Positions 32,604 through 52,366 of a DNA stretch of 64,000 bases are shown here, in pieces. The stretch is from Acidimicrobiia bacterium. GTDB taxonomy: Bacteria > Actinomycetota > Acidimicrobiia > Spongiisociales > ZC4RG35. The notes below the pieces were generated by a model. That model was not told the DNA's origin. It was given only the letters and a program-made list of their open reading frames with translations, and did not search any database. The stretch is from NCBI GenBank assembly GCA_965203555.1, contig CBDBCY010000004.1:1792001-1856000 (forward strand), in the 5' to 3' direction. Numbering within the stretch: position 1 is the stretch's first letter; every line of letters starts with the position of its first letter. Made by a program: the position numbers and the translations under genes.

Positions 32604-32674
32604 GCGGGTGTAGTTCAATGGCAGAACACGAGCTTCCCAAGCTCGGAGTGGGGGTTCGATTCCCCTCACCCGCT
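32604..32674 (+). tRNA. tRNA-Gly (anticodon CCC)
   Basis: Acceptor stem GCGGGTG/CACCCGC, D-arm GTTC-AATGGCA-GAAC, anticodon arm CGAGC-TTCCCAA-GCTCG, T-arm GGGGG-TTCGATT-CCCCT. CCA is not encoded directly. Confidence 0.97.
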
Positions 32675-32769: not shown

Positions 32770-35700
32770 GTGGAGATTTCTATGACTGACAGATCGTCCA
32801 GATTCGTGACTCTTTTCGTAGTGTCGGCGCTGTTTGCGACCCTCCTGGTCAGCCCCGCCGCAGCGGCTGACGGTGGGACCTACGAGGATGTCTCCTCCCA
32901 GAGTCCCCACATCCCGGCAATTGATGCCTTGGGGGCACTGGGACTGTTCGTTGAAACGGATTGCGCCGACGGAAGCTTCTGTCCCGATGAGCCCCTGCCT
33001 CGATGGGTGATGGCGGTATGGGTCGCCCGGGTTATCTACGGCGTCGACCCCCGGGAGGAATCACCGTCGACACGGTTCGTTGACCTGTACGACGACATAG
33101 CGTGGGCGGCCCCCCATATCGAGCAGTTGGTCGACTCGGGCATTATCGAGGGATGCGACGTCGATGCGAAAACGTTCTGCCCCGAGGACGGCCTGACCCG
33201 CGGGGAGATAGCGACGGTTCTGACCCGCGCCTTCAAACTTCCGCCGGCCGGCTACGTCGGGTTCGCAGATCTGGTGGGTGTTGAAAACGCCGACGACATC
33301 CATGCTCTTGCCGCGGCAGGGATAACCGTGGGTTGTTCCGCCGATCCCTTCCTTTACTGCCCCTCTTCGGCTGTAACGAGGGCTCAGATGGCGTCGTTCC
33401 TGGCGCGTGCCGCGGGCCTGGTTGCCAAACCCGGCTATCAGCCGGTGACGGATTCGACCCCCCTGCCCACCGATCCGGCGGTGCGAGTCGGGACCCTGGA
33501 CAACGGTTACACCTACTACCTGCGGCAGAACGACAAACCCGGCAACAGCGTGACGCTGCGATTGGTGGTCAGGGCGGGATCCGTCAATGAACCCGAGCCG
33601 GAGTTGGGCATAGCCCACTTCGTGGAGCACATGCTCTTCAGGGGAACGGAAGCCTACACGGGCGAAGAATTGAACGCCACCCTCCGCTCCCTGGGAGTGG
33701 AATCCGGCCCCGACTTCAACGCCGGCGTCTGGTACGACCAGACCGTCTACGATCTCACCGTCACCACGGATCCTGTGGAGAATGTCGACACGGCGTTGCA
33801 TGTGCTGTCGCAGATGGGTCACGCCGCTCTCATCGAACCGGAGACCGTGGATGCAGAGCGTGGCGTGGTGCTGGACGAGGCCCGGTACCGGACTGCCACT
33901 GCAAGCGGCCAGATCTCAGCCGAGTTCGACCGGATATATACCGAAGGGACACCGTACGAGGGCTACTACCCCATCGGGACCGTGTCCGGTATCGAGTCGA
34001 CCACCGCTGAGGACCTGCGGGACTTCTACGAGACGTGGTACGTACCGTCGAACATGGCTATCGTGGCGGTCGGCGACCTGCCCACCGACGAACTCTACGC
34101 TATGGTCGAACGGCACTTCGGATCGATAGAGTCCGGTGCGGCGCCGGATCTCTCCCTTGCCGAGATCACCCCTGACCGGACGGTCTCCTACGACGTGGTG
34201 ACGGACGACGAATATGGTCTCTCCTTCATCTCGCTCGACATCCCGATCCCGACGTTCGACTACGCCACCGTGGGCGGGAACCGTCTCCTCATGATGGAGA
34301 GCCTGGTCGCCACGATGGTTCAGAACCGACTCGAAGACGCCTTCTATCGCGGTGAACTGACCCAGGTGGATGTGCCCCAGTTCCACGCTTTCAATCACAA
34401 CCAGAGACTGCGTTACTACGGCACCAACTGGCAGGGCGAGAATCTCGACACCGCCTCAAAAGATTATCTTTCGGTATTGCGGACGGTTCAACGGTACGGC
34501 TTCAATGATGACGACCTATCCCGCGCCACTGCGGCGTTCGCCACCTCGCTCCAGTACCAACTTGACAACGCCGTGTCGACGAAGGACCTCGCCTACGCGG
34601 AGAGGTACGTCAGCCACTTTTTGTCCGGGGTGGACATAAGCGAGCCGCAGGAACGCTACGACCGGCTCTCGGCTCTCTTGGATGAGGTCACCGCCAAAGA
34701 GCTGACCGATCACTTCCGCTGGCTGATGAACCGGGCGAACCTGATTGTTATCGCAGTGGGTCCCGATGCAGCCAGCGTGCCCACGACGTCCGCTCTTCAA
34801 GCCGCCGTGGAAGCCGCCCGCCCCCGGAGCGAGCCGCCTCCGATCGAGCCCGAGATCGCCAGGTTGATGGAGATTCCCGAGCCGGTGAGCCCGGTTGCCA
34901 CCCGGACATTGACGGTGCTGGACGCCACCGAATGGGAGTTCGCCAACGGAGCGCGGGTGATGTTCGTTTATTCCGATATCGAAGAATCGACGGTCCACCT
35001 TCGGGCCCGGTCCCTGGGGGGATGGTCGACACTCTATCCGGGCGCCCGTGCTTTGGCGCCGCGGGCGGTGGAAGCGGTGCTGGGCAGCGGTTTCGGTGAT
35101 CTAAGCAAATTGCAGATCGACCGGTTCCTGGGAGATAGCACCGCATCGCTGAACGCCGTCATCAATGAAAGAGAAGAGGGTTTCGACGGCGCCTCCAATC
35201 CTGACGACCTTGGCACGCTGTTCCAACTTCTGCATCTGGCTGTAACCGCTCCCCGGGTGGACGACCTCGCCTTCCAACAGGCTCTGAACGCCGCAGCCAT
35301 CCGCACGTCATTTGCCGAAGTGAATCCTGCCTGGCAGGCTTGGGTGGCCTACAACGAGGCGCGTTTCGGCGCCGAGTGGCACCACCCGGTGGCCACCCGG
35401 GAACAACTGGCCACGCTGAGCGCCGAGTCGCTCCTCGGTCTCTTCCGGGCGCGCCTGGGCGAGGTGGACGACATGATGCTGGCGGTGGTGGGAGACACCA
35501 GCGCCGAAGAGGTCGAACGGCTCGCTCGCCACTATGTCGGGACCCTCCCCGCCGGTGACTCCGATACCTTCGCCGACCGCCACGCACCGGCGCCGACCGA
35601 ACTGGTGCGGCGGGAAATACCGGTAACCGCGGACATGAGCGCCGTGTTGCAAATGTATAATGACACCCCGGTTTCCGATTCTCCGTCTGTTCGGGTCAAT

Positions 35701-36174
35701 GGCGACGTGCTGGAATCGATCCTGGATGATCGCCTCTTCCGGCTGGTCCGTGAAGAGTTGGGCGCCTCTTATGTTGCCGGGGTCTCGATTCAAACGGCCT
35801 TGACGCCCACACCCACGATCTACTCGAACCTCTTCTACACGGTTGACGCCGACGGTTATGAAAACGCCTACCAGCAGGTTCTCTCGATTCTGGCCGATCT
35901 GGTCGCCAACGGACCCACCGCCGAGGAACTGGAGCAGGCCAGGACCGTTCTCCGGGCCGACTACAGCGAGCCCAGCAACGGCGCCCTGCTCAGCGTTCTC
36001 ATCAACCGCCTGTACCTCGACGACGACAACCTGCCCACCTCCCAGGGTTCCCTGGAAGAACTCGATGCGGTCACCATCGCTTCGGTGCAGTCCCTGGCCG
36101 CCGTTCTCTACGACAAGGAAGGGCGCGTGGAGATCGTGCGGGTCCCGACCGCCAATCCGGACGGAAGCGGGTAA
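32770..36174 (+). CDS. Secreted SLH-domain M16 (insulinase/PqqL-like) zinc peptidase
   Basis: Signal peptide, three SLH repeats (e.g. [13 protein letters not shown]), [12 protein letters not shown], inverted zincin HFVEH. Confidence 0.9.
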
Positions 36175-36263
36175 GAGTTGACGCAAGTGATGGGATGGCG
36201 GCGGACTCCCCGCCGCCATCCAGTCCCAAGCAGGCAGTTTGTCGCTTCAAGGTATGGGAAACC

Positions 36264-36836
36264 GTGATCTTTTCTGACCGATCGATTCGGGAGGCCCTTT
36301 CCGAAGGCCGACTGGAAATCGATCCCTTCGAGGAATCCAACGTCCAACCTTCGAGCGTCGACTTGCGAGTCGCCTCCACCTTCAGAGTGTTCGCCAACCA
36401 TCTCTATCCCTACATAGATCCTCGCCGGCCTCAGGAGAACCTCACCAGTCTTCATGACGTGGGACGCGATGATCACTTCATCCTGCATCCCGGTGAGTTC
36501 GCCCTGGGCGCCACCTTGGAGCGGGTCCGGTTGGACAATGACATCGTGGCCCGTTTGGAGGGAAAGTCCAGTTTGGGGAGGCTGGGTTTATTGATCCACT
36601 CCACGGCTGGATTCGTTGATCCCGGCTTCAATGGTCACCTCACCTTGGAACTCTCCAACGTCGCCCAGCTTCCCATCGCCATCTACCCCGGAATGCGGAT
36701 CGGGCAGATCAGCTTCTACCAGATGACCACGCCGGCCGACAACCCCTACGGAAGCGGGGTGATCGGCTCCAAATACCAGGGCCAGGCCGGACCCACGGCC
36801 AGCCGGAGTCACCAGGACTTTCGCATCGGCGGCTAG
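36264..36836 (+). CDS. dcd: dCTP deaminase
   Basis: [40 protein letters not shown]. Confidence 0.96.
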
Positions 36837-36939
36837 GAATGGGCTGTTTCTGAATAGCGACCAGGAATAAGTGTTAAGAGGGGTGGCTCGTGATGGGCGA
36901 TATGTGAACGGCAGCCGTCATCACTGACAGAAAGTCGCG

Positions 36940-36973
36940 AAAAAAGCGGGTGCCCTTTCGGGCCCACTCCCGC
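36940..36973 (-). terminator. Intrinsic terminator of the candidate sRNA (copy B)
   Basis: Minus strand GCGGGAGTGGGCCC-GAAA-GGGCACCCGC-TTTTTT. Confidence 0.75.
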
Positions 36974-37088
36974 CTCCACCTTGCCGGGTCTAACAACCCC
37001 CGTCCAGCCGGGAACAGGCTTTGCCCAGACATCTGATCCCTCGACGCGGTCCGAACGACGCCGGATCGGACCGTCTCGGTGTTTGGCT
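36940..37088 (-). ncRNA. Candidate small RNA, copy B (about 150 nt), family unknown
   Basis: Lies between a TTGATT-N18-CATATT promoter and an intrinsic terminator, contains hairpins, and is homologous to 51404-51624. Confidence 0.65.
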
Positions 37089-37094
37089 CTCATC

Positions 37095-37124
37095 AATATG
37101 AACCCCTCCCTGGGACAGAATCAA
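37095..37124 (-). promoter_or_regulatory. Putative sigma-70-type promoter
   Basis: TTGATT (37124-37119), 18-nt spacer, CATATT (37100-37095). Conserved with 51406-51435. Confidence 0.65.
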
Positions 37125-37234
37125 CCTCCGAATCACTTTTTGTTTCACAACCTGTGACAAGACCGAACGGCAAAATCGGTGTCCCACCACGACAACTCGA
37201 GTCAGTCTCCCGCATTGTCCCGACCGCAATAGCC

Positions 37235-38242
37235 TCAGTACTCGTGGTCGGCGCGGCGCTGGCGGGAAGGCTGCACCCGCGGCGGCTCTCCCGGTTGTTT
37301 GGGATAGTGGGGAGGCCAGGGGGCGTCTCCCAGGCCGTACTCCTCCTCGTCGCGAACCACCCATTCCAAGAGAGTGTGGACTTCCCCCGCCGCCTCATCG
37401 ATCCCCTCGGTCAAATCGCCAACCTCCCGGTACCTGGCCGCGAACCGATCCATGGGAAAGTCTTCGATCTCCACGTCGGGCAGTTCCTCCCAGGCGAGGG
37501 GCGCCGATACATATCCGGTGGGTCTCACTCCGTAGGCCGATGAGACGGTCTTGTCCCGGGCGTTCTGGTTGTAGTCGACAAAGATTCCCTTGCGTTCTTC
37601 CTTCCACCATTTGGTGGTGACCAGACCGGGCAGTCGCCTCTCCAGCTCCCTGGCGAAGGCCAGCACCGCCCTCCGGGTGTGATGGAAGTCATAGGCGCGT
37701 TCTATCCGGACATACACGTGAATCCCCCGGCTTCCGGAGGTCTTGGGCCATCCCCGCAGTCCCACCTCCTCCAGCAACGCGCCTGCTGCCAACGCCACCT
37801 CCTTCACATGGGGGAACCCGAACCCGGGCGTGGGATCGAAGTCGAACCGCAACTCATCGGGGTGGTCGATGTCGTCGGCGCGAACCGGCCAGGGATGCAG
37901 GTCCAGGCACCCCAACTGCGCCAACCGGACGATGTCGGCCTCGGTGGTGGGCACGTTCATCACCCCCGGGCGTTGCGACGGAAACCGAATGTCCACCGTC
38001 TTGAAGGGAGTTCTCCGCTGGGCTCGCTTTTGATAGACGGGAGGCTGCTCCACCCCTTTCATGTAGCGCTTGAGCATGGTGGGGCGGTTGGCCACCCCTC
38101 GCAGCGCTCCCTCCGCGCAAACGACGAAATGCTCGACCACATCCAGCTTGGTCCAGCCCTGTTTCGGAAACACCACCCGGGACGGACTGGAGATCCTCAC
38201 CTCCTCGCCTGCTACCTCGACGAAGGCGACTTCTTTGGCCAT
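37235..38242 (-). CDS. Stand-alone LigD polymerase-domain (Prim-Pol) protein
   Basis: RPTMLKRY, PDELRFDFDP, KTSGSRGIH, FVDYNQNARDKT. Confidence 0.92.
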   Translation of the reverse strand: MAKEVAFVEVAGEEVRISSPSRVVFPKQGWTKLDVVEHFVVCAEGALRGVANRPTMLKRYMKGVEQPPVYQKRAQRRTPFKTVDIRFPSQRPGVMNVPTTEADIVRLAQLGCLDLHPWPVRADDIDHPDELRFDFDPTPGFGFPHVKEVALAAGALLEEVGLRGWPKTSGSRGIHVYVRIERAYDFHHTRRAVLAFARELERRLPGLVTTKWWKEERKGIFVDYNQNARDKTVSSAYGVRPTGYVSAPLAWEELPDVEIEDFPMDRFAARYREVGDLTEGIDEAAGEVHTLLEWVVRDEEEYGLGDAPWPPHYPKQPGEPPRVQPSRQRRADHEY

Positions 38243-38360
38243 CACAAGGCGGTAGCTTATCTGGAAGGTTGATGGGTGATTCTTCAAGACCACTCCGTCC
38301 TCGCGCCCCAAATCCCTCCGGGTGCAACAGGACGGGCCGATCAGGGGTTCTTTTAAGTAG

Positions 38361-38888
38361 ATGGACGATTTAGCCGAGGCTTTGGCGGCGGACCTGGACA
38401 AGGCCTTTCCCGATCTGGTGTCCCGGTTGCAGAACGGCGTTTTCAGCGGACTGCGCCAACTCACAGGAGATCACCATCAAGCCGAAGATCTGACCCAGGA
38501 AGCCTTCATCCGGGCATACCGGGTAATGCAGACCTATCCTGCCGAACGCATCCGCACCATGCGTCTGCGGGGTTGGGTGTGGACTATCGCCCTGAATCTG
38601 TTGCGTAACCAGGCTCGCGCCGAATCACGACACCCGAGGCCGGTGAGGCTGGAGGAAGTCGGCTACCTTCCGGCGTCGCCTCCGGACTCTGCGGCTTGGC
38701 GCCGGCGATGGATGCTTTTGTCCACAGCCCAAAGAACGGCGGTGATCCTCCGGCATGTGGCAGGTCTTTCCTACCGGGAGATCTCAGAGGCGACCGACCG
38801 TCCCCAAAATACCGTGCGAAGCGACGTCCGCCGCGGGCTCAGCCGGCTGCGTTCCATCATCGCAGAAGAGAACAGGAGTAGCGAATGA
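38361..38888 (+). CDS. ECF RNA polymerase sigma factor
   Basis: AEDLTQEAFIRAY, WVWTIALN, LSYREI...TVRSDVRRG. Confidence 0.92.
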   Translation: MDDLAEALAADLDKAFPDLVSRLQNGVFSGLRQLTGDHHQAEDLTQEAFIRAYRVMQTYPAERIRTMRLRGWVWTIALNLLRNQARAESRHPRPVRLEEVGYLPASPPDSAAWRRRWMLLSTAQRTAVILRHVAGLSYREISEATDRPQNTVRSDVRRGLSRLRSIIAEENRSSE

Positions 38889-47920: not shown

Positions 47921-50428
47921 CTACTCGCCCACGGGAGACCATTCGAGGCCGAATTCGCTGACATCGTTGTCGGTGATCCGTCGAACGTTGTCCCCGTCCG
48001 CATCCATCACAAAGATCTCCCAGTTGCCGGAGCGGTAGCTTTCAAAGGCAATCCGGGCGCCGCTGGGCGACCACACCGGTGACTCGTCCTCAAAGTCGGT
48101 GGCGGTGAGTTGTTGAACGTTGGTTCCGTCCACATCCATCACAAAGATGTCCCTGCTCCCGTCGCGTTCGCTGTGGAAAGCGATGCGGGTTCCGTCAGGA
48201 GACCACGCCGGGCCTCCGTCAGTCACCTCATTGGCGGTGAGCTGTTGAACGTTGGTTCCGTCCACATCCATTACAAACAACTCCCAATCACCTTGGCGGA
48301 GACTTTCGAAGAGAATCCGCGAGCCGTCCGGCGACCATCGGGGATGCCCGTTGTGATACTCGTTGTCGGTAAGCAACCTCACGTCGGAACCGTCGGCATT
48401 CATCACAAAGATCTTCCAACCGGTCTCCTGCCGGCTTTCGAATGCGATGCGGGTCCCGTCCGGCGACCATCTCGGACCCCAATCGAAGGTGTCGAGATCG
48501 GTGAGTTGTCGCACATTGGAGCCATCGGCGTCCATCACATACACGTCGCTGTCCCCGTCGCGGTCGCTGGCGAAGACGATCCGGGTCCCGTCGGGCGACC
48601 ACCTGGGACGCCAGTCATGGGACTCGTTGTCGGTGAGTTTGCGGAGATTGCTTCCGTCGGCGTTCACCACAAACACCTCCACGTCCCCGTCGCGAAGGCT
48701 GCTGAAGAGAACTTGCGAGCCGTCCGGCGACCACATCGGAATGCCATCGGTAGAAGCCGTGTCGGTAAGTTCTCTCCGATTCGTTCCTTCGGCATTGATG
48801 GCCACCACGTCCCAGCGGGGGTTACGATTGCTGGTGTAGACGATCCGGGTCCCGTCGGGCGACCACCTGGGATACTCGTCGTGGTACCTGTCATCAGTGA
48901 GAGCCCGGCGGTTGGAACCGTCCGCCTCCACCACCACGATCTCCCCATATCCGTCCACATGGCTTTCCAAGACGAGGCGGGCACCGTCCGGCGACCACAC
49001 CGGATCCCCGTCCCAGGCCTCGTTGTCCGTCACCTGCAGGATCTGTCCACTGTCCGCATCCACCACAAATATCTCCCAGTCGCCGCCGACATGGCTTTCA
49101 ATAGCGATTCTGGCGTCCACCGGAGACCATTTGGGATCCCGGTCCTCGTGGTCGTTTCGCGTAAGTTGCTCCTGGTTGCCGCCGTCGGCGTCCATCACGA
49201 ACAATTCCCCGTCCCCGTCGCGTTCGCTTACGAAGGCGATCCGGGTCCCGTCCGGCGACCACACCGGATCCCCATCCCAGGTCTCGTTGTGGGTCAGCAA
49301 TACCGCCCCTGTTCCGTCGGCGTCCATCACGAACACATCACTGTCCCCGTCGCGTTCGCTTACGAAGGCGATCCGGGTCCCGTCCGGCGACCACACCGGA
49401 TCGGAATCCCGGAAGGGGTTATGGGTCAGTTGCCGTTGGTCGGCGCCGTCGGCGTCCATCACGAACACATCGTGACCGCTTACGAAGACGATCCGGGTCC
49501 CGTCCGGCGACCACACCGGATCCCCATCCGATGGGACACTGTAAGTGAGCCGCCTCACGTTGGCGCCGTCCTCGTCCATCACATACAACTCGGAAGAAAA
49601 GTCCCGATGGCTGTGAAAAGCGATGCGGGTTCCGTCCGGCGACCACGCCGGATCGGAATCCCTGGTGTCGTTCTCGGTCAGGCGCCGCACGTTGGAACCG
49701 TCCGCATCCATCACAAAGAGTTCATCGTTGCCCTCCCATCTGGTGAATGCCAGGCGTCCGGTGGGACCTTCCGGCAGCGGAGGAATGTAGTGGAGGGCAC
49801 GAGCCAGGGCGACCGCCATGTCCCCCCTGGTGATCGGAGCGTCAGGACAATACCTGAACAGTCCACCGGGACAGCCTTCCGCGATACCGGCGCCGGCCGC
49901 GGCGCCGATGTCCCCGGCATGGATGTTCCCTGCGACGTCGATGAACCCGGCCACCGGATCAGGCCTCAGACCCAGAGCGCGAATCAGAAAGCTCGCCAAC
50001 TGCCCGCGTGTCGCCGGAGCGTCCGGACAGTAGAGATCACGATCCTTGGAACATCCAATCGTCACTCCCTTTTCCGCCAGCAACTCCACATAGGGCGCCC
50101 ACCATCGGGCGGGGTCCACGTCCTTGAACCGCGACGTCTCCACCGGAGCGGGTTCCTCGTCCTCCAAGATCCGGCCCATCCACACCGCAGCCGCCCACCG
50201 CTCGAGCACCTCGTCCGGACAGACCGAGCCGTCCTCGCATTCCGTGCCGTCCAAGATCCCCCTCTTTGCCAAGGCATCCATTGCCGTTTGCACAGTCGCC
50301 TGGTCAGCGGCGCTGTCGGCGCCCGCCGCCACCGGGCCGAACAGGGTCAGCACCATCCCGATCACTCCTGCCACCGCCAACGAGCGGCGCCGTGACAACC
50401 AACCCTGACCGCTACCCTGGATACCCAT
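47921..50428 (-). CDS. Secreted SLH-domain protein with 14 PD40/TolB-like beta-propeller repeats
   Basis: Signal peptide, SLH repeats (TRGQLASFL, ITRGDMA), 14 WSP-containing repeats. Confidence 0.9.
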   Translation of the reverse strand: MGIQGSGQGWLSRRRSLAVAGVIGMVLTLFGPVAAGADSAADQATVQTAMDALAKRGILDGTECEDGSVCPDEVLERWAAAVWMGRILEDEEPAPVETSRFKDVDPARWWAPYVELLAEKGVTIGCSKDRDLYCPDAPATRGQLASFLIRALGLRPDPVAGFIDVAGNIHAGDIGAAAGAGIAEGCPGGLFRYCPDAPITRGDMAVALARALHYIPPLPEGPTGRLAFTRWEGNDELFVMDADGSNVRRLTENDTRDSDPAWSPDGTRIAFHSHRDFSSELYVMDEDGANVRRLTYSVPSDGDPVWSPDGTRIVFVSGHDVFVMDADGADQRQLTHNPFRDSDPVWSPDGTRIAFVSERDGDSDVFVMDADGTGAVLLTHNETWDGDPVWSPDGTRIAFVSERDGDGELFVMDADGGNQEQLTRNDHEDRDPKWSPVDARIAIESHVGGDWEIFVVDADSGQILQVTDNEAWDGDPVWSPDGARLVLESHVDGYGEIVVVEADGSNRRALTDDRYHDEYPRWSPDGTRIVYTSNRNPRWDVVAINAEGTNRRELTDTASTDGIPMWSPDGSQVLFSSLRDGDVEVFVVNADGSNLRKLTDNESHDWRPRWSPDGTRIVFASDRDGDSDVYVMDADGSNVRQLTDLDTFDWGPRWSPDGTRIAFESRQETGWKIFVMNADGSDVRLLTDNEYHNGHPRWSPDGSRILFESLRQGDWELFVMDVDGTNVQQLTANEVTDGGPAWSPDGTRIAFHSERDGSRDIFVMDVDGTNVQQLTATDFEDESPVWSPSGARIAFESYRSGNWEIFVMDADGDNVRRITDNDVSEFGLEWSPVGE

Positions 50429-50640
50429 CACAAACTCCTCTTCAGGTAGACCAAGACACCCGCGGCTAACAATACTCCCTGACATCCTTTCTCGATGGGA
50501 ACTCGAATAGCCGCGCTTCGGTGGGGCAAGAGTCAGAGAGCACTGTTTGCATGGCAAGAGCCGCCTCCACGTAGCGCGGGATGTTGAATAAGCTGTAGCG
50601 AAAGAGTGACTCTCCCGTCCGATTCTGCAATATTCTCAAG

Positions 50641-51324
50641 GTGACAATGGCCGATCATGTGGTATGGGATTGGAACGGCACCCTTTGGGACGACCTTCCC
50701 CAGGTACATCAAGCCACCAACGCCGCCCTTCGGGAAGTGGGCGGCCCTTCTCTGACCCTCTCCGAATACGTCGGTTTGTTCACCCGCCCTCTACCGATGT
50801 TCTATCGGCGGGCGTTGGGGCGAGATCTCACGCCGCCGGAGTGGGAACGGGTCAACCGCCGGTTCATGGACTCATACACAAGCACCCTCCACCTCGCCCG
50901 GCTGGCTTCCGAAGCCCTACCGGCGCTGGAGATGGCATCCCGCAACGGCGCCACCCAGTCCATTCTTTCTCTTTATCCCCATGATTCCCTGACTTCACTG
51001 GTCGCAAAACTTGGTATTTCCCATTACTTCACTCGCGTCGACGGCCTGCGAGGCACCCCGGACAGCAGCAAGGTCGGCATGTTTGCGGAACATCTGCGAG
51101 AGGCCGCGGCAGACATTCCTCCCCACCGGGTGGTGATGATCGGGGACACCGATGACGACTTGGCGGCGGCCCAGGCGTCCGGAAGCGCCGGCATACTCAT
51201 CAATCATCACGGGTACCACCCGCTGGGGGACCCCACCCTCGACAGTTTCTTTGCAGAAGGACTCATACAAGCTCTCGGGCGAGCCGGTCTGAAGCATCCG
51301 GATGCGCAGGCTTCCTGCCGATAG
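50641..51324 (+). CDS. HAD family hydrolase
   Basis: WDWNGTL motif I and MIGDTDDD motif IV. Confidence 0.9.
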   Translation: MTMADHVVWDWNGTLWDDLPQVHQATNAALREVGGPSLTLSEYVGLFTRPLPMFYRRALGRDLTPPEWERVNRRFMDSYTSTLHLARLASEALPALEMASRNGATQSILSLYPHDSLTSLVAKLGISHYFTRVDGLRGTPDSSKVGMFAEHLREAAADIPPHRVVMIGDTDDDLAAAQASGSAGILINHHGYHPLGDPTLDSFFAEGLIQALGRAGLKHPDAQASCR

Positions 51325-51405
51325 GGTTGCATTCGCCTCGCCGGCTTGCCGGGGTGGGCATGTGGAGCATGGGGACGGGTCGCGAAAAGACGGGGCCGAT
51401 AAGGG

Positions 51406-51435
51406 TTGACTCTGTCACACCGGAGGTTGCATATT
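51406..51435 (+). promoter_or_regulatory. Putative sigma-70-type promoter
   Basis: TTGACT-N18-CATATT. Conserved with 37095-37124. Confidence 0.65.
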
Positions 51436-51441
51436 GGTGAG

Positions 51442-51620
51442 GTCGAAACACCTCCCGGTCCGTTCCGACGTCGCCCGGACCGCGCAGCCGCTCTGATGAG
51501 CGGAGAGGTCATACTCCTTTCGGGACACGGTCTCCGGCAAGACCAGCAGACCGCGTCCTGAGTTCTTGGCGGTGGCGGCGGGGGACGGGCCCAACGGGTC
51601 CGGTAGGCAGAGCAATTTTT
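51442..51620 (+). ncRNA. Candidate small RNA, copy A (about 180 nt), family unknown
   Basis: Homologous to 36940-37126, carries several hairpins, ends at a T-run. Confidence 0.6.
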
Positions 51621-51710
51621 CGCGGAATAAACACTGTTTTCGCGATTCCCGCCAATAGGACCCACCCGTTGATCTCTAATACAATCCTTGCAAGTGGAGC
51701 GTTATCTAAC

Positions 51711-51734
51711 ATGAATACTGCTACTGATATTCAT
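51711..51734. promoter_or_regulatory. Inverted repeat, probable antitoxin operator
   Basis: ATGAATA-N10-TATTCAT just upstream of the antitoxin start. Confidence 0.55.
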
Positions 51735-51749
51735 ACCAGGGGTTTACAA

Positions 51750-51965
51750 ATGCGGATTTCCGAACGCGGACAAATCACCATACCCAAACGGCTGAGGGAA
51801 CGATTTGGAATGCATCACAATGTCGAAGTCGAAATCATTCCCGTGGACAATGGCCTGCTTATCCAGAAAATGACAGCGGCGCCACACCCCGTGGATCGTG
51901 TGTACGGGATTCTGGGCGGGGATCGGAACACCGACGACTATATCGAGGAGATACGCGGCAGGTGA
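51750..51965 (+). CDS. AbrB/MazE/SpoVT family antitoxin (VapB-like)
   Basis: MRISERGQITIPKRLRERFG. Confidence 0.9.
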   Translation: MRISERGQITIPKRLRERFGMHHNVEVEIIPVDNGLLIQKMTAAPHPVDRVYGILGGDRNTDDYIEEIRGR

Positions 51966-52366
51966 TCACCGCGGTTGACACGAACGTCCTGCTGGATGTG
52001 TTCCTGCCCGACACACATCACGGCGCCCGGTCTCGGCAGTTGCTCAAGCATGCTTATAACCGAGGGGCGATCCTTGTCTGCGATGTCGTTTACGCAGAAC
52101 TGGTTCCATTGTTCGCAGCGCGCGCCGCCCTCGACAAGGCATTGCGGGAGATCAGTGCCACAACATCCCCGATTGACGTCGCCATCGCCTGTGAAGCCGG
52201 CTCTCGTTGGTCCCGATATCGAAAGGCCGGTGGGCCCAGGAGTAGGATAATCACCGACTTCCTGATCGGCGCCCATGCCGTTGCTCGGTCTGACTTCTTC
52301 CTGACCAGAGATCGTGGCTTTTTCGCTGCCTATTTTCCTGAACTGCAAAGGCCCGACATCGCTTAG
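51962..52366 (+). CDS. PIN-domain toxin (VapC family)
   Basis: AVDTNVLLD, VYAEL, DFLIGAHA, LTRD. GTGA overlap. Confidence 0.92.
   Translation: MITAVDTNVLLDVFLPDTHHGARSRQLLKHAYNRGAILVCDVVYAELVPLFAARAALDKALREISATTSPIDVAIACEAGSRWSRYRKAGGPRSRIITDFLIGAHAVARSDFFLTRDRGFFAAYFPELQRPDIA

What the first reader, a model, noticed from the sequence alone, without database searches (positions are those of the whole stretch)
36936..37126. Two dispersed homologous promoter-driven intergenic elements: a candidate unnamed small-RNA family (copy B here, copy A at 51404-51624)
Seen in sequence: the minus strand from 37126 (GGTTGATTCTGTCCCAGGGAGGGGTTCATATTGATGAGAGCCAAACACCGAGACGGTCCGATCCGGCGTCGTTCGGACCGCG) aligns by hand with the plus strand from 51404 (GGTTGACTCTGTCACACCGGAGGTTGCATATTGGTGAGGTCGAAACACCTCCCGGTCCGTTCCGACGTCGCCCGGACCGCG) at about 62 of 82 columns. 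Conservation is concentrated in functional-looking blocks: a TTGAYT -35 box, an identical 18-nt spacing, a CATATT -10 box, AAACACC, and a 27-nt hairpin CGGTCCG...TCCGRCGTCG...CGGACCG. Both copies also share a 3' block GGTGGMGGCGGG...GGGCCC-loop-GGG...TTTTTCGCG. Copy B ends in a clear terminator and points into convergent dcd, so it cannot be an mRNA leader. Inference: stand-alone paralogous sRNAs of about 150-180 nt. I do not recognise them as tRNA, SRP, tmRNA, RNase P, 6C, Ms1 or a known riboswitch.
Basis: partly seen in the sequence, partly recalled or inferred. Interest (0 to 1): 0.85.

Follow-up and report, generated by a model that had tools for sequence, protein, structure and literature searches.

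The report
High-copy mobile-like structured small-RNA gene family
The two look-alike intergenic stretches belong to a family of about fifty self-contained, structured small-RNA gene cassettes scattered through this genome, each behind a promoter of the type that switches on after DNA damage in actinobacteria; no such RNA family was found in the reference RNA library searched.

Summary
In detail: the two copies share 62 of 82 bases (BLAST E 1.4e-8). They are 2 of about 51 copies in this 3.4-Mb genome. Rfam 15 has no match. The RNA model R1 finds 22-71 matches in each of 16 of 16 other genomes of the genus and 68 in one genome of another family. It finds none in 150 other genomes sampled from the class. 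Each copy is a cassette: A-tract, -35, a GTC element 12-13 nt before a cAnnnT -10 (the published PafBC/RecA-NDp pattern), a 150-190-nt body, a G-rich block with hairpin, then TTTTCGCG. The same promoter pattern precedes recA, rmuC and about 25 DUF222-HNH genes, and pafABC is present. Helices covary, with G-U pairs, on the proposed strand only. The copies are not leaders: 27 of 51 face a convergent gene. They come and go: copy B's site is filled in 3 of 17 genus genomes. Best reading: a new, lineage-restricted, mobile-like family of structured sRNA genes, probably induced by DNA damage. Transcription, mobility mechanism and function are not shown.

The parts
36940..37089 (-). Copy B, predicted RNA body (about 150 nt)
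   Evidence: R1 covariance-model hit, 112.1 bits, full model 1-163 (G000:C4:1828940-1829089); sequence.
37136..37150 (-). Copy B, upstream A-tract TTGTGAAACAAAAAG (family consensus (T)CGCGAAAAAA or TGTGAAAAAA, about 15 nt before the -35)
37095..37124 (-). Copy B promoter: -35-like TTGATT (37119-37124), TGTCCCA with GTC at 37114-37116, 13 nt, then -10 CATATT (37095-37100)
   Evidence: GTC-N12/13-nAnnnT is present in 48 of 51 loci against 289 of 5000 random windows. Published PafBC motif tGTCgg(N10)tA(N3)T (PMC8635444). Not called by the simple sigma-70 scan.
37078..37087 (-). Copy B, 5' strand of long-range helix P0 (GCC ... CACC)
   Evidence: RNAalifold on three groups; covariation table.
36972..36980 (-). 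Copy B, 3' strand of P0 (GGUG-G-A-GGC), the start of the G-rich block
37047..37073 (-). Copy B, hairpin P2: CGGUCCG / CGGACCG with the conserved 13-nt loop AUCCGGCGUCGUU
   Evidence: 91.8% of cells paired; 5 of 7 pairs with changes on both sides.
37034..37040 (-). Copy B, nearly invariant GGGAUCA junction motif
   Evidence: Alignments A3 and A5.
36988..37030 (-). Copy B, central domain closed by helix P3 (GUCU ... AGAC), holding the B-type motif GUUCCCGGCUGGACGG
36935..36971 (-). Copy B, rest of the G-rich block, bulged GC hairpin, T6 and CGCGA (TTTTTTCGCGA)
   Evidence: The simple terminator scan finds none.
51441..51618 (+). Copy A, predicted RNA body (about 178 nt)
   Evidence: R1 hit, 107.2 bits, full model (G000:C4:1843441-1843618); sequence.
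51380..51389 (+). Copy A, left end TCGCGAAAAG
51406..51435 (+). Copy A promoter: -35 TTGACT (51406-51411), TGTCACA (51413-51419; GTC 51414-51416), 13 nt, then -10 CATATT (51430-51435)
   Evidence: TTGACT-18-CATATT, 9 of 12.
51442..51452 (+). Copy A, 5' strand of P0 (GUCG ... CACC)
51571..51579 (+). Copy A, 3' strand of P0 (GGUG-G-CGGC)
51456..51482 (+). Copy A, hairpin P2 (CGGUCCG / CGGACCG; loop UUCCGACGUCGCC)
51488..51503 (+). Copy A, extra hairpin P2b (CCGCUC-UGAU-GAGCGG), present in A-type copies only and different in sequence in each
51505..51513 (+). Copy A, GAGGUCAUA junction motif (the A-type form of GGGAUCAUA)
51520..51561 (+). Copy A, central domain closed by P3 (UCGGGACACGGUCU ... 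AGACCGCGUCCUGA)
   Evidence: duplex -23.0 kcal/mol.
51580..51645 (+). Copy A, rest of the G block, hairpin CGGGCCC-AAC-GGGUCCG, T5, then TTTTTCGCGG ... TTTTCGCGA (two TTTCGCG repeats)
   Evidence: The simple terminator scan finds none.
36195..36836 (+). Flank of copy B: dcd (dCTP deaminase), convergent with the element
   Evidence: Pfam DCD 7.1e-52.
37235..38464 (-). Flank of copy B: LigD primase-polymerase-domain protein, upstream of the element on the same strand
   Evidence: Pfam LigD_Prim-Pol 7.1e-69.
50641..51324 (+). Flank of copy A: HAD-family hydrolase, upstream on the same strand
   Evidence: Pfam Hydrolase/HAD.
51669..52366 (+). Flank of copy A: antitoxin-like (MazE/AbrB fold) plus PIN-domain gene pair, downstream on the same strand
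   Evidence: Pfam MazE_antitoxin 1.2e-5 and PIN 7.9e-11.

Best explanation
Copies A and B are two members of a lineage-restricted, high-copy family of self-contained non-coding RNA genes. There are about 51 copies in this genome and tens in every genome of the genus that was searched. Each cassette carries its own hybrid promoter: an A-tract, a -35-like TTGAC, then a GTC '-26' element 12-13 nt before a cAnnnT -10. That is the pattern PafBC uses to recruit RNA polymerase after DNA damage in mycobacteria. The cassette is inferred to give a 150-190-nt RNA. The RNA folds into a closed multi-helix shape. A long-range helix, P0, pairs the extreme 5' end with the start of the G-rich block. Inside P0 lie hairpin P2 with a conserved 13-nt loop, an optional P2b, and a central domain closed by a copy-specific helix P3. 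A 3' GC hairpin and a U-run followed by CGCG come after P0. Shown here: the family, its copy number and distribution, the promoter pattern, the covarying helices, and the gain and loss of copies at orthologous sites. Inferred: transcription; induction by PafBC on DNA damage; and action in trans through the invariant loop and junction nucleotides (protein binding is more likely than antisense pairing, because the conserved parts are shared and the variable parts match nothing else in the genome). The cassettes multiply and are lost like a non-autonomous mobile element, by a mechanism not identified here.
For: Family and scale: nhmmer finds 51 copies. R1 gives 39 hits in the own genome. It gives 22-71 matches in 16 of 16 other genus genomes and 66-68 in G033, a genome of another family. 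Full-length hits fall in 27 of 80 loci fetched from the species collection, all titled Acidimicrobiia or Ca. Spongiisocius, or unclassified bins.

Not known: Rfam 15 gives nothing at gathering score or at E up to 10 for the two copies. It also gives nothing at E up to 1 for representatives of the other subtypes.

Structure, P2: 85.7% of cells are paired against 83.0% in shuffles, reached by 0 of 500 shuffles. Five of 7 pairs have changes on both sides. One pair reads UA 35, UG 12, CG 9, and its G-U pairs would be A-C mismatches on the other strand. Sliding the partner by one column drops pairing to 57% or 28%.

Structure, P0: with 5' GUCG, block position 6 is C in 13 of 13. With GUCA it is U in 6 of 6. 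GCUG goes with C and GCUA with U. Cognate duplex energy is -8.52 against -7.96 kcal/mol for non-cognate, reached by 2 of 10000 permutations.

Structure, P3: cognate -15.55 against non-cognate -12.61 kcal/mol, reached by 0 of 10000 permutations. Helix sequences differ between copies.

Promoter: GTC-N12/13-nAnnnT lies just upstream of 61 of 63 aligned copies and in 48 of 51 own loci, against 289 of 5000 random windows. The published PafBC motif is tGTCgg(N10)tA(N3)T, with the GTC guanines conserved across actinobacteria (PMC8635444, passages). The same TGTCAC...nAnnnT pattern sits upstream of recA, rmuC, DUF5131, a Cas3-like helicase, a PD-(D/E)XK nuclease and at least 22 DUF222-HNH genes. A pafA-pafB-pafC operon is present.

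Not leaders: the downstream gene is convergent in 27 of 51 copies.

Turnover: copy B's dcd-ligD site is filled in 3 of 17 genus genomes; the other 14 have a 31-55-nt spacer there. Copy A's neighbourhood is not matched next to the HAD gene in 16 of 16 other genomes. The copies favour convergent (17) over divergent (4) intergenic spaces.
Against: No transcript has been seen. No RNA run holds the sequence, so expression, the ends of the RNA and damage induction are all inferred.

The simple terminator scan calls no terminator in either copy, and in copy A the hairpin is about 14 nt from the U-run.

PafBC promoters are described as lacking a -35, whereas 54 of 63 copies have TTG 3-7 nt before the GTC. 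The promoters may therefore be ordinary sigma-A promoters that merely contain GTC.

The -10 mostly starts with C, not T.

Single-sequence folding is unremarkable for copy B (z -0.28) and modest for copy A (z -2.66).

The P3 signal is modest. The cognate strand is the best partner in only 1 of 63 copies, and its median rank is 10 of 63.

Paralogues are related, so the shuffle tests overstate independence.

The A5 alignment was fitted to R1's P1 and P2, so it leans towards them. P1 (3 pairs) shows almost no covariation, is only 72% paired, and competes with P0 for CACC.

No function, partner protein or target was found.
Confidence: 0.6

Rival explanations
1. It is a MITE-like selfish DNA repeat. 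The conserved blocks and hairpins serve a transposase or recombinase at the DNA level, the promoter-like and terminator-like parts are incidental, and any RNA has no role.
For: Copy B's site is filled in 3 and empty in 14 of 17 genus genomes. There are tens of copies per genome, and the family is patchy: two genera of different families have it, and 0 of 150 other class genomes do. The ends carry a short inverted CGCGAAA(A) ... TTTTCGCG; TTTTCGCG occurs 101 times in the genome, 36 of them at the 51 elements. Convergent intergenic spaces are preferred over divergent ones, 17 to 4. The near-identical pair L004/L005 shares sequence exactly from TCGCGAAA to a few bases past the second TTTCGCG.
Against: Compensating changes include G-U pairs that work only as RNA on one strand. 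Copies are 60-80% alike yet keep helices of different sequence, which points to long selection on the fold. The whole promoter architecture is conserved between two genera. No target-site duplication is visible at L001, L003-L006 or the L004/L005 pair. The 5' CGCGAAAA is not seen in the 12 G033 copies inspected. No autonomous partner with the same ends was found. This rival also overlaps with the best explanation: an element can be mobile and still need its RNA.
Confidence: 0.17
2. The RNA is the partner of the DUF222-HNH (REP13E12-like) endonuclease genes, as a guide, antisense regulator or homing site. The solo copies are orphans of that two-part element.
For: Of 27 DUF222-HNH loci, 12 lie within 500 nt of an element (13 within 502 nt), where about 0.5 would be expected by chance. 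A 1.68-kb unit made of a C-type RNA cassette plus a convergent HNH gene is repeated at 88-93% identity. HNH genes carry the same TGTCACA-N9/10-CATACT promoter and start about 8 nt after it. The protein has DUF222 plus HNH domains.
Against: G033 has 68 RNA matches but only 4 HNH-like matches at 27-38% identity. One of them begins about 1.4 kb from a listed element; the others were not checked against the element list. DUF222-HNH homologues occur in genomes without the RNA (G018, G019, G025, G027). The arrangement varies: convergent, tandem on either side, or divergent. Most copies, about 39 of 51, have no HNH gene nearby. Only 9 of 25 HNH 3' ends have an element within 500 nt, and only 3 of 25 have a TTTCGCG remnant. 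Variable RNA segments have no convincing matches elsewhere in the genome. The shared promoter is explained more simply by a shared regulon.
Confidence: 0.1
3. It is a cis-acting leader (riboswitch or attenuator) of the downstream gene.
For: There is a promoter, then a structured region, then a hairpin with a U-run, as in attenuators. Copy A is followed by a co-oriented gene pair 40-90 nt away. One copy lies 54 nt upstream of pafA.
Against: In 27 of 51 copies the next gene is on the other strand, including copy B. Downstream genes are unrelated in function. No Rfam riboswitch matches.
Confidence: 0.03
4. It encodes a small protein, for example a damage-induced type I toxin.
For: ORFs of 51 and 87 codons overlap the two copies. 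Across P2 they share the frame ...GP(F/I)RRR(P/S)DR. SOS-induced small toxins are known elsewhere (recalled, not from a call).
Against: The two copies already differ by a 1-nt indel just upstream of that stretch. Across the family, indels of many lengths break every frame. No start codon is conserved at or after the predicted start of the RNA. Conservation follows helices, not codons.
Confidence: 0.02

Closest known systems
PafBC-dependent (RecA-NDp) promoters of the actinobacterial DNA-damage response
   Same: A GTC '-26' element lies 12 nt (13 in a minority) before an nAnnnT -10. The same pattern precedes recA and other repair genes here. pafBC is present.
   Different: Described PafBC promoters lack a -35 and drive protein genes. 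These carry a TTGAC -35-like box and an upstream A-tract and drive a non-coding unit. The -10 usually starts with C. Induction was not tested.
MITEs and other short dispersed bacterial repeats (Correia, RUP, ERIC, REP; recalled, not from a call)
   Same: Tens of non-coding copies of about 300 bp in intergenic DNA, mostly at gene 3' ends; filled and empty orthologous sites; short inverted ends.
   Different: Each copy carries a complete promoter-to-hairpin RNA gene. Copies are old and divergent, with RNA-type compensating changes. No target-site duplication and no autonomous partner were found.
Multi-copy bacterial sRNA families (for example cyanobacterial Yfr2-type or NsiR1 repeats, Qrr; recalled, not from a call)
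   Same: Paralogous sRNA genes, each with its own promoter and terminator-like end, sharing a regulator-specific promoter.
   Different: Copy number is about ten times higher. Copies turn over between species. The RNA is larger, with a closed multi-helix fold and variable inserted domains.
Eukaryotic SINEs such as Alu and B2 (recalled, not from a call)
   Same: High-copy, non-autonomous, promoter-carrying small-RNA genes whose expression rises under stress.
   Different: SINEs move by reverse transcription. No reverse transcriptase (PF00078) was found in this genome. The promoter here is upstream, not internal.
Element-borne guide or scaffold RNAs (TnpB/IscB omega RNA, IS110 bridge RNA) and bacterial Y RNA with Ro60
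   Same: Structured RNAs of 150-250 nt tied to mobile DNA. One divergent copy lies 108 nt downstream of the only tnpB.
   Different: The genome has one tnpB and five unlinked IS110 genes. There is no TROVE/Ro60 gene, no Rfam hit and no guide-like match of the variable parts.

Membership tests
Any Rfam 15 family | Covariance-model score at or above the family's gathering score | tested here: not met
   Whole window: only a tRNA at 32604-32674. Copies B and A at E up to 10: best scores are 12.0 and 12.5 bits against gathering scores of 60. Seven other loci, including C-type, G033 and tnpB-linked copies: no match at E up to 1.
PafBC / RecA-NDp promoter class | GTC element about 12 nt upstream of a tAnnnT -10 | tested here: met
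   61 of 63 aligned copies (N12 in 49, N13 in 12) and 48 of 51 own loci, against 289 of 5000 random windows. Motif as printed in PMC8635444. The first base of the -10 is mostly C.
PafBC / RecA-NDp promoter class | No -35 element | tested here: not met
   TTG lies 3-7 nt before the GTC in 54 of 63 copies. TTGACT-18-CATATT is called as a sigma-70-type site in copy A.
PafBC / RecA-NDp promoter class | PafB and PafC encoded in the genome; the same motif at DNA-repair genes | tested here: met
   Pup-ligase, WYL+WCX and HTH_PafC+WYL+WCX genes stand in a row. The motif lies upstream of recA, rmuC, DUF5131, a Cas3-like helicase and a PD-(D/E)XK nuclease.
PafBC / RecA-NDp promoter class | Induction by DNA damage, dependent on PafBC | not testable with these tools
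   No RNA data for this organism.
MITE (non-autonomous DNA transposon) | Terminal inverted repeats | tested here: inconclusive
   Most copies in this genome have the 8-9-bp pair (T)CGCGAAAA ... TTTTCGCG(A). The 12 G033 copies inspected show TTTTCGCG only at the 3' end. There is often a second TTTCGCG 15-20 nt further on.
MITE (non-autonomous DNA transposon) | Target-site duplication | tested here: not met
   No direct repeat flanks L001, L003-L006 or the recently duplicated pair L004/L005. The empty sites are too diverged to fix exact borders.
MITE (non-autonomous DNA transposon) | Presence/absence at orthologous sites, and an autonomous partner with the same ends | tested here: inconclusive
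   Presence/absence is met: 3 filled and 14 empty of 17. No partner was found. The HNH unit shares only its left end. IS110 and tnpB are unlinked.
Cis-regulatory leader / riboswitch | A co-oriented regulated gene directly downstream | tested here: not met
   The downstream gene is on the same strand in 24 and on the opposite strand in 27 of 51 copies (the gene calls come from a home-made codon-usage caller).
TnpB omega RNA / IS110 bridge RNA | Encoded at the end of, or next to, the nuclease or recombinase gene | tested here: not met
   One tnpB in the genome, with one divergent copy 108 nt downstream. Five IS110 genes, none next to an element.
Y RNA with Ro60 (Rsr) | A TROVE-domain protein in the genome | tested here: not met
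   PF05731: 0 matches; the control search rings in Deinococcus. The genome is 95% complete.
DUF222-HNH (REP13E12-like) protein, the frequent neighbour | Pfam DUF222 followed by an HNH nuclease motif | tested here: met
   P0001: DUF222 1.4e-22 (residues 41-314) and HNH 2.1e-11 (317-359).

The most novel reading that the evidence does not exclude
A bacterial counterpart of stress-induced SINEs: a self-propagating small-RNA gene that has captured the DNA-damage (PafBC) promoter, so that genome injury triggers a burst of dozens of related RNAs sharing one conserved three-dimensional core. That core would act on a host protein. One example would be a sponge or feedback ligand for the nucleic-acid-sensing WYL domains of PafBC, or for a repair or nuclease protein such as DUF222-HNH. 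Alternatively it could be a new catalytic RNA needed for the element's own spread.
Probability: 0.2. Interest if true: 0.85.

Novelty: new variant of a known kind. Interest (0 to 1): 0.7.

Why it matters
If transcribed as predicted, this would add dozens of non-coding RNAs to the PafBC DNA-damage regulon. In the passages read here that regulon is described only through protein genes. My searches for PafBC with sRNA found no paper reporting such an RNA (regulon tables in supplements could not be opened).

It would also be a clear bacterial case of a complete, regulated, structured RNA gene behaving as a mobile, high-copy element. That bears on how sRNA genes are born and spread.

The family is large and diverse. 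There are hundreds of R1 matches across 17 genomes (one search lists 150 and reports 566 more), so the structure can be tested rigorously by covariation. Its invariant loop and junction nucleotides give direct handles for pull-downs.

The frequent adjacency to DUF222-HNH genes, a very common actinobacterial family of unknown role, gives a new lead on those proteins.

Tried and rejected
Expression. The look-up of sequencing runs listed no RNA holder for window 51300-51750: two DNA-type holders from one study, and three metatranscriptome runs holding next to none of the sampled words. Read laying at 80% likeness put 0 contigs from the three RNA runs on the stretch. This says nothing about expression either way.

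RNAalifold on plain MAFFT alignments gave almost nothing: 9 pairs, -4.09 kcal/mol. A crude column-pair scan of the nhmmer alignment was uninformative. Structure emerged only from per-copy folds, the model-based alignment and group-wise RNAalifold.

Helix P1 (ACCUC/GAGGU). It holds in A-type copies, but one of its three modelled pairs is unpaired in 48 of 63 sequences, it shows no covariation, and it competes with P0. I treat it as doubtful.

The CUGAUGA ... GAAAC in copy A briefly suggested a hammerhead. The CUGAUGA lies in a copy-specific insert and the helices do not fit. Rejected.

The idea that every HNH gene sits at the 3' TTTTCGCG end of an element was rejected. Only 3 of 25 HNH 3' ends have the remnant, and 9 of 25 have an element within 500 nt.

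Guide-RNA idea. 72 variable segments were searched against the genome outside the elements. This gave only 16 ungapped matches of 17 or more identical bases. Fourteen had E above 0.01 and the best was 0.002.

Reverse transcriptase, Ro60/TROVE, linkage to IS110 and to tnpB: none supports a known RNA-protein system.

Weak R1 hits in G019 and G027 (27.6 and 27.5 bits, 80-85 nt, with no promoter or hairpin features) were judged spurious. So were 11 low-scoring hits (21.5-28.8 bits) in the collection scan, from records such as Faecalibacterium, Aphanothece and Streptomyces. G027 is marked unpublished. The only statements resting on it are that it has DUF222-HNH homologues and no convincing element.

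Literature searches, full-text library only: DUF222+HNH (5 papers, listing only); REP13E12 (22 papers, listing only); RecA-NDp or PafBC (109 papers); PafBC+sRNA (10 papers, listing plus passages of PMC6789036); Acidimicrobiia+noncoding RNA+repeat (1 paper, listing only). None describes this family.

Full report
**What is there.** BLAST of copy B against the whole genome finds copy A at 75.6% identity over 82 nt, which is 62 of 82, with E 1.4e-8. MAFFT of the wider regions gives 75% column identity over 312 columns. Copy B (minus strand, about 37150 to 36935) lies between a LigD primase-polymerase gene on the same strand and a convergent dcd gene. Copy A (plus strand, about 51380 to 51645) lies between a HAD hydrolase gene and an antitoxin-like/PIN gene pair.

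**Scale.** The same BLAST showed many more matches. Iterative nhmmer on the laid genome (3.42 Mb, 4 contigs; the window is C4:1792001-1856000) converged on 51 copies or fragments.
- They fall into at least three subtypes that share the 5' and 3' modules but differ in the middle.
  - A-type has ACACC-UCCCGG, an extra hairpin and GAGGUCAUA. Copy A is A-type.
  - B-type has ACACCGAGACGG and GGGAUCA. Copy B is B-type.
  - C-type has AAACAUGAA and a longer middle.
- There are also a few truncated copies and a few with large inserts.
- Only copies A and B lie in the window.

**Not a known RNA.** Rfam 15 gives only a tRNA in the window at gathering score. At E up to 10 the two copies give only chance hits of 12.0 and 12.5 bits against thresholds of 60. 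Seven other loci, covering C-type, G033, tnpB-linked and HNH units, give nothing at E up to 1.

**Anatomy of a cassette.** Aligned flanks show conservation from (T)CGCGAAAAAA or TGTGAAAAAA, about 15 nt upstream of a -35-like TTGAC. It runs through TGTC(A/C)CA and a CATAYT -10, then through the body. It ends at TTTTCGCG(R)nnTAGnG and usually a second TTTCGCG 15-20 nt further on. Beyond these points the flanks are unrelated. The near-identical pair L004/L005 shares sequence exactly within these limits and shows no flanking direct repeat.

A covariance model, R1, was built from 33 A- and B-type copies. It finds bodies of 147-187 nt.

**Structure.** Per-copy folds give three recurring parts:
- a 5' domain holding hairpin P2 (CGGUCCG/CGGACCG) with a conserved 13-nt loop UUCCGRCGUCGYY;
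- an optional, sequence-variable hairpin P2b;
- after the nearly invariant GGGAUCAUA (GAGGUCAUA in A-type), a central domain closed by helix P3, whose sequence differs from copy to copy.

On the 63-sequence model-based alignment A5 (33 own copies, 18 from other genus genomes, 12 from G033), P2 is 91.8% paired and 5 of its 7 pairs have changes on both sides. The covariation score of the whole tested structure (P1 plus P2) is reached by 0 of 500 shuffles. Sliding the partner by one column drops pairing from 85.7% to 57% or 28%. One pair reads UA 35, UG 12, CG 9.

Group-wise RNAalifold proposed, in all three groups, a long-range helix P0 between the extreme 5' end and the start of the G-rich block. 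A direct tabulation supports it.
- 5' GUCG goes with C at block position 6 in 13 of 13 copies.
- GUCA goes with U in 6 of 6.
- GCUG goes with C, and GCUA with U.
- Copies whose helix starts with A mostly have U at position 9.
- In the GCCA class, position 6 is free (A 6, C 6, U 4), so there the helix is one pair shorter.

Cognate 5' and 3' strands pair better than non-cognate ones:
- P0: -8.52 against -7.96 kcal/mol, reached by 2 of 10000 permutations.
- P3: -15.55 against -12.61 kcal/mol, reached by 0 of 10000 permutations.

Caveats:
- The cognate P3 strand is the best partner in only 1 of 63 copies (median rank 10).
- Paralogues are not independent.
- A5 was fitted to P1 and P2.
- P1 itself is weak and competes with P0.
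- Copy B alone folds no better than shuffles (z -0.28). Copy A gives z -2.66.
- The simple scans call copy A's promoter but no terminator in either copy, so the 3' end is uncertain.

**Promoter type.** TGTC[ACT]CA-N9-11-CAYRYTG occurs 60 times in the genome. Twenty-nine are in the elements, and the rest lie almost all at the starts of DUF222-HNH genes, whose ATG follows about 8 nt after the -10. A relaxed pattern also picks up the upstream regions of several other genes, confirmed by Pfam:
- recA (TTGTCACAGCGGTTCTATAGCT, 35 nt before the start)
- rmuC
- a DUF5131 gene
- a Cas3-like helicase
- a PD-(D/E)XK nuclease
- an SMC-like ATPase
- the single tnpB

The published in-vivo PafBC motif is tGTCgg(N10)tA(N3)T. 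PafB reads the GTC at the '-26 element', and these promoters lack a -35 (PMC8635444, passages; RecA-NDp naming in PMC6789036, passages).

Here GTC-N12/13-nAnnnT lies just before 61 of 63 aligned copies: 18 of 18 from other genus genomes, 31 of 33 own, and 12 of 12 from G033. It is also found in 48 of 51 own loci, against 289 of 5000 random windows.

The genome encodes pafA, a WYL+WCX protein and an HTH_PafC+WYL+WCX protein in a row.

Unlike described PafBC promoters, 54 of 63 copies also have TTG 3-7 nt before the GTC. I therefore call these hybrid promoters and treat damage induction as an inference. In M. tuberculosis, 'five putative HNH endonucleases' are among the mitomycin-induced genes (PMC8151990, one passage). 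This fits a shared regulon.

**Not leaders, not coding.** With a home-made codon-usage gene caller, the next gene downstream is co-oriented in 24 copies and convergent in 27 of 51. The upstream gene is co-oriented in 37. Convergent intergenic spaces hold 17 copies and divergent ones 4. Indels of many lengths break every reading frame.

**Distribution.**
- R1 finds 22-71 matches in each of 16 of 16 other genomes of the genus.
- It finds 66-68 matches in G033, a genome of a different family in the same order.
- It finds nothing convincing in the other 23 relatives.
- It finds none at E up to 1e-8 in 150 other genomes sampled from the class, covering 81 other genera, under stricter filters.

R1 gave near-full-length hits in 27 of the 80 loci fetched. 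All 27 come from records titled Acidimicrobiia or Acidimicrobiaceae MAGs, Candidatus Spongiisocius, or unclassified bins.

The G033 copies keep the whole architecture: TTGAAA, TGTCACA, a TATAGG-like -10, P0, P2, GGGAUCA, P3, the G block and TTTTCGCG. Their helices have different sequences.

**Turnover.** For copy B, dcd and ligD are adjacent in all 17 genus genomes. The element is there in only 3 (G000, G014, G003). The other 14 have 31-55 nt between the two genes, including G008 and G007, whose dcd is most similar to this genome's. For copy A, the HAD gene is found in all 16 other genomes, but neither the element nor the PIN pair is matched beside it (very diverged elements could be missed). 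No reverse transcriptase was found.

**The HNH link.** tblastn finds 27 DUF222-HNH loci (domains). Twelve lie within 500 nt of an element, where about 0.5 would be expected. The arrangements vary. Six C-type cassettes with a convergent HNH gene form a 1.68-kb repeat at 88-93% identity, whose two ends carry inward-facing promoters of the same type.

Against a dedicated partnership:
- G033 has 68 RNA matches but only a few distant HNH homologues.
- Genomes without the RNA have HNH genes.
- Only 9 of 25 HNH 3' ends have an element nearby.

I read the link as a shared regulon plus a shared preference for the same insertion-tolerant spots, or HNH genes settling beside the cassettes. A functional partnership remains a minority possibility.

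**Verdict.** The best-supported reading is a new, lineage-restricted, high-copy family of structured small-RNA gene cassettes with PafBC-type promoters that multiply and are lost like mobile DNA. Transcription, induction, mobility mechanism and function remain to be shown.

Noticed in passing
G000:C4:2616436-2620054 (locus L227 137-3754): One family member (L023) lies 54 nt upstream of, and co-oriented with, pafA (Pup ligase), followed by the pafB-like and pafC genes. A cassette with a PafBC-type promoter therefore sits directly before the operon that encodes PafBC.
   Followed up: partly
G000:C2:86581-88230 (loci L225, L042): The genome's only tnpB (OrfB_IS605 + Cas12f1-like TNB) has a TGTCACA-type promoter. 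A divergent family member with its own such promoter follows 108 nt downstream on the same strand. Rfam finds no omega-RNA-type match there.
   Followed up: partly
G000: 27 loci, e.g. C4:833868-835145 (locus L099 569-1816, minus strand): There are about 27 DUF222-HNH (REP13E12-like) genes, nearly all with the promoter TGTCACACCCCCTGTGCATACTG and an ATG about 8 nt after the -10, which suggests leaderless mRNAs in a DNA-damage regulon. One of them (C4:2305496-2308072) appears split by an IS110 gene at about C4:2306753.
   Followed up: partly
window 51669-52366 (+): An antitoxin-like (MazE/AbrB fold) plus PIN-domain pair lies directly after copy A. In the other 16 genus genomes it is not matched beside the HAD gene; one genome (G007) has it at another locus.
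   Followed up: partly
window 32604-32674 (+): A tRNA gene (Rfam tRNA, 68.9 bits) lies immediately before a 1134-codon ORF (32770-36174).
   Followed up: no
window 32770-36174 (+) and 47921-50557 (-): Two very large ORFs have similar N-terminal repeat regions (FxDV...HxxAIxxL, GxxxGC). The second carries many WSPDG(T/S)RI(A/V)F-type repeats. Neither was scanned against Pfam.
   Followed up: no
G000:C4:618232-618447 and its 3' flank (locus L030): The 3' end of this copy carries three tandem units of about 22 nt (GGGGTTTCGCGCATTA...), where most copies have two TTTCGCG motifs.
   Followed up: no
G000:C2:95743-95790 and C4:1297002-1297040: Isolated 3'-end remnants of the cassette (GGGAGGG...TTTTCGCG...TTTTCGCGG) without a detectable body, consistent with decay of old copies.
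   Followed up: no
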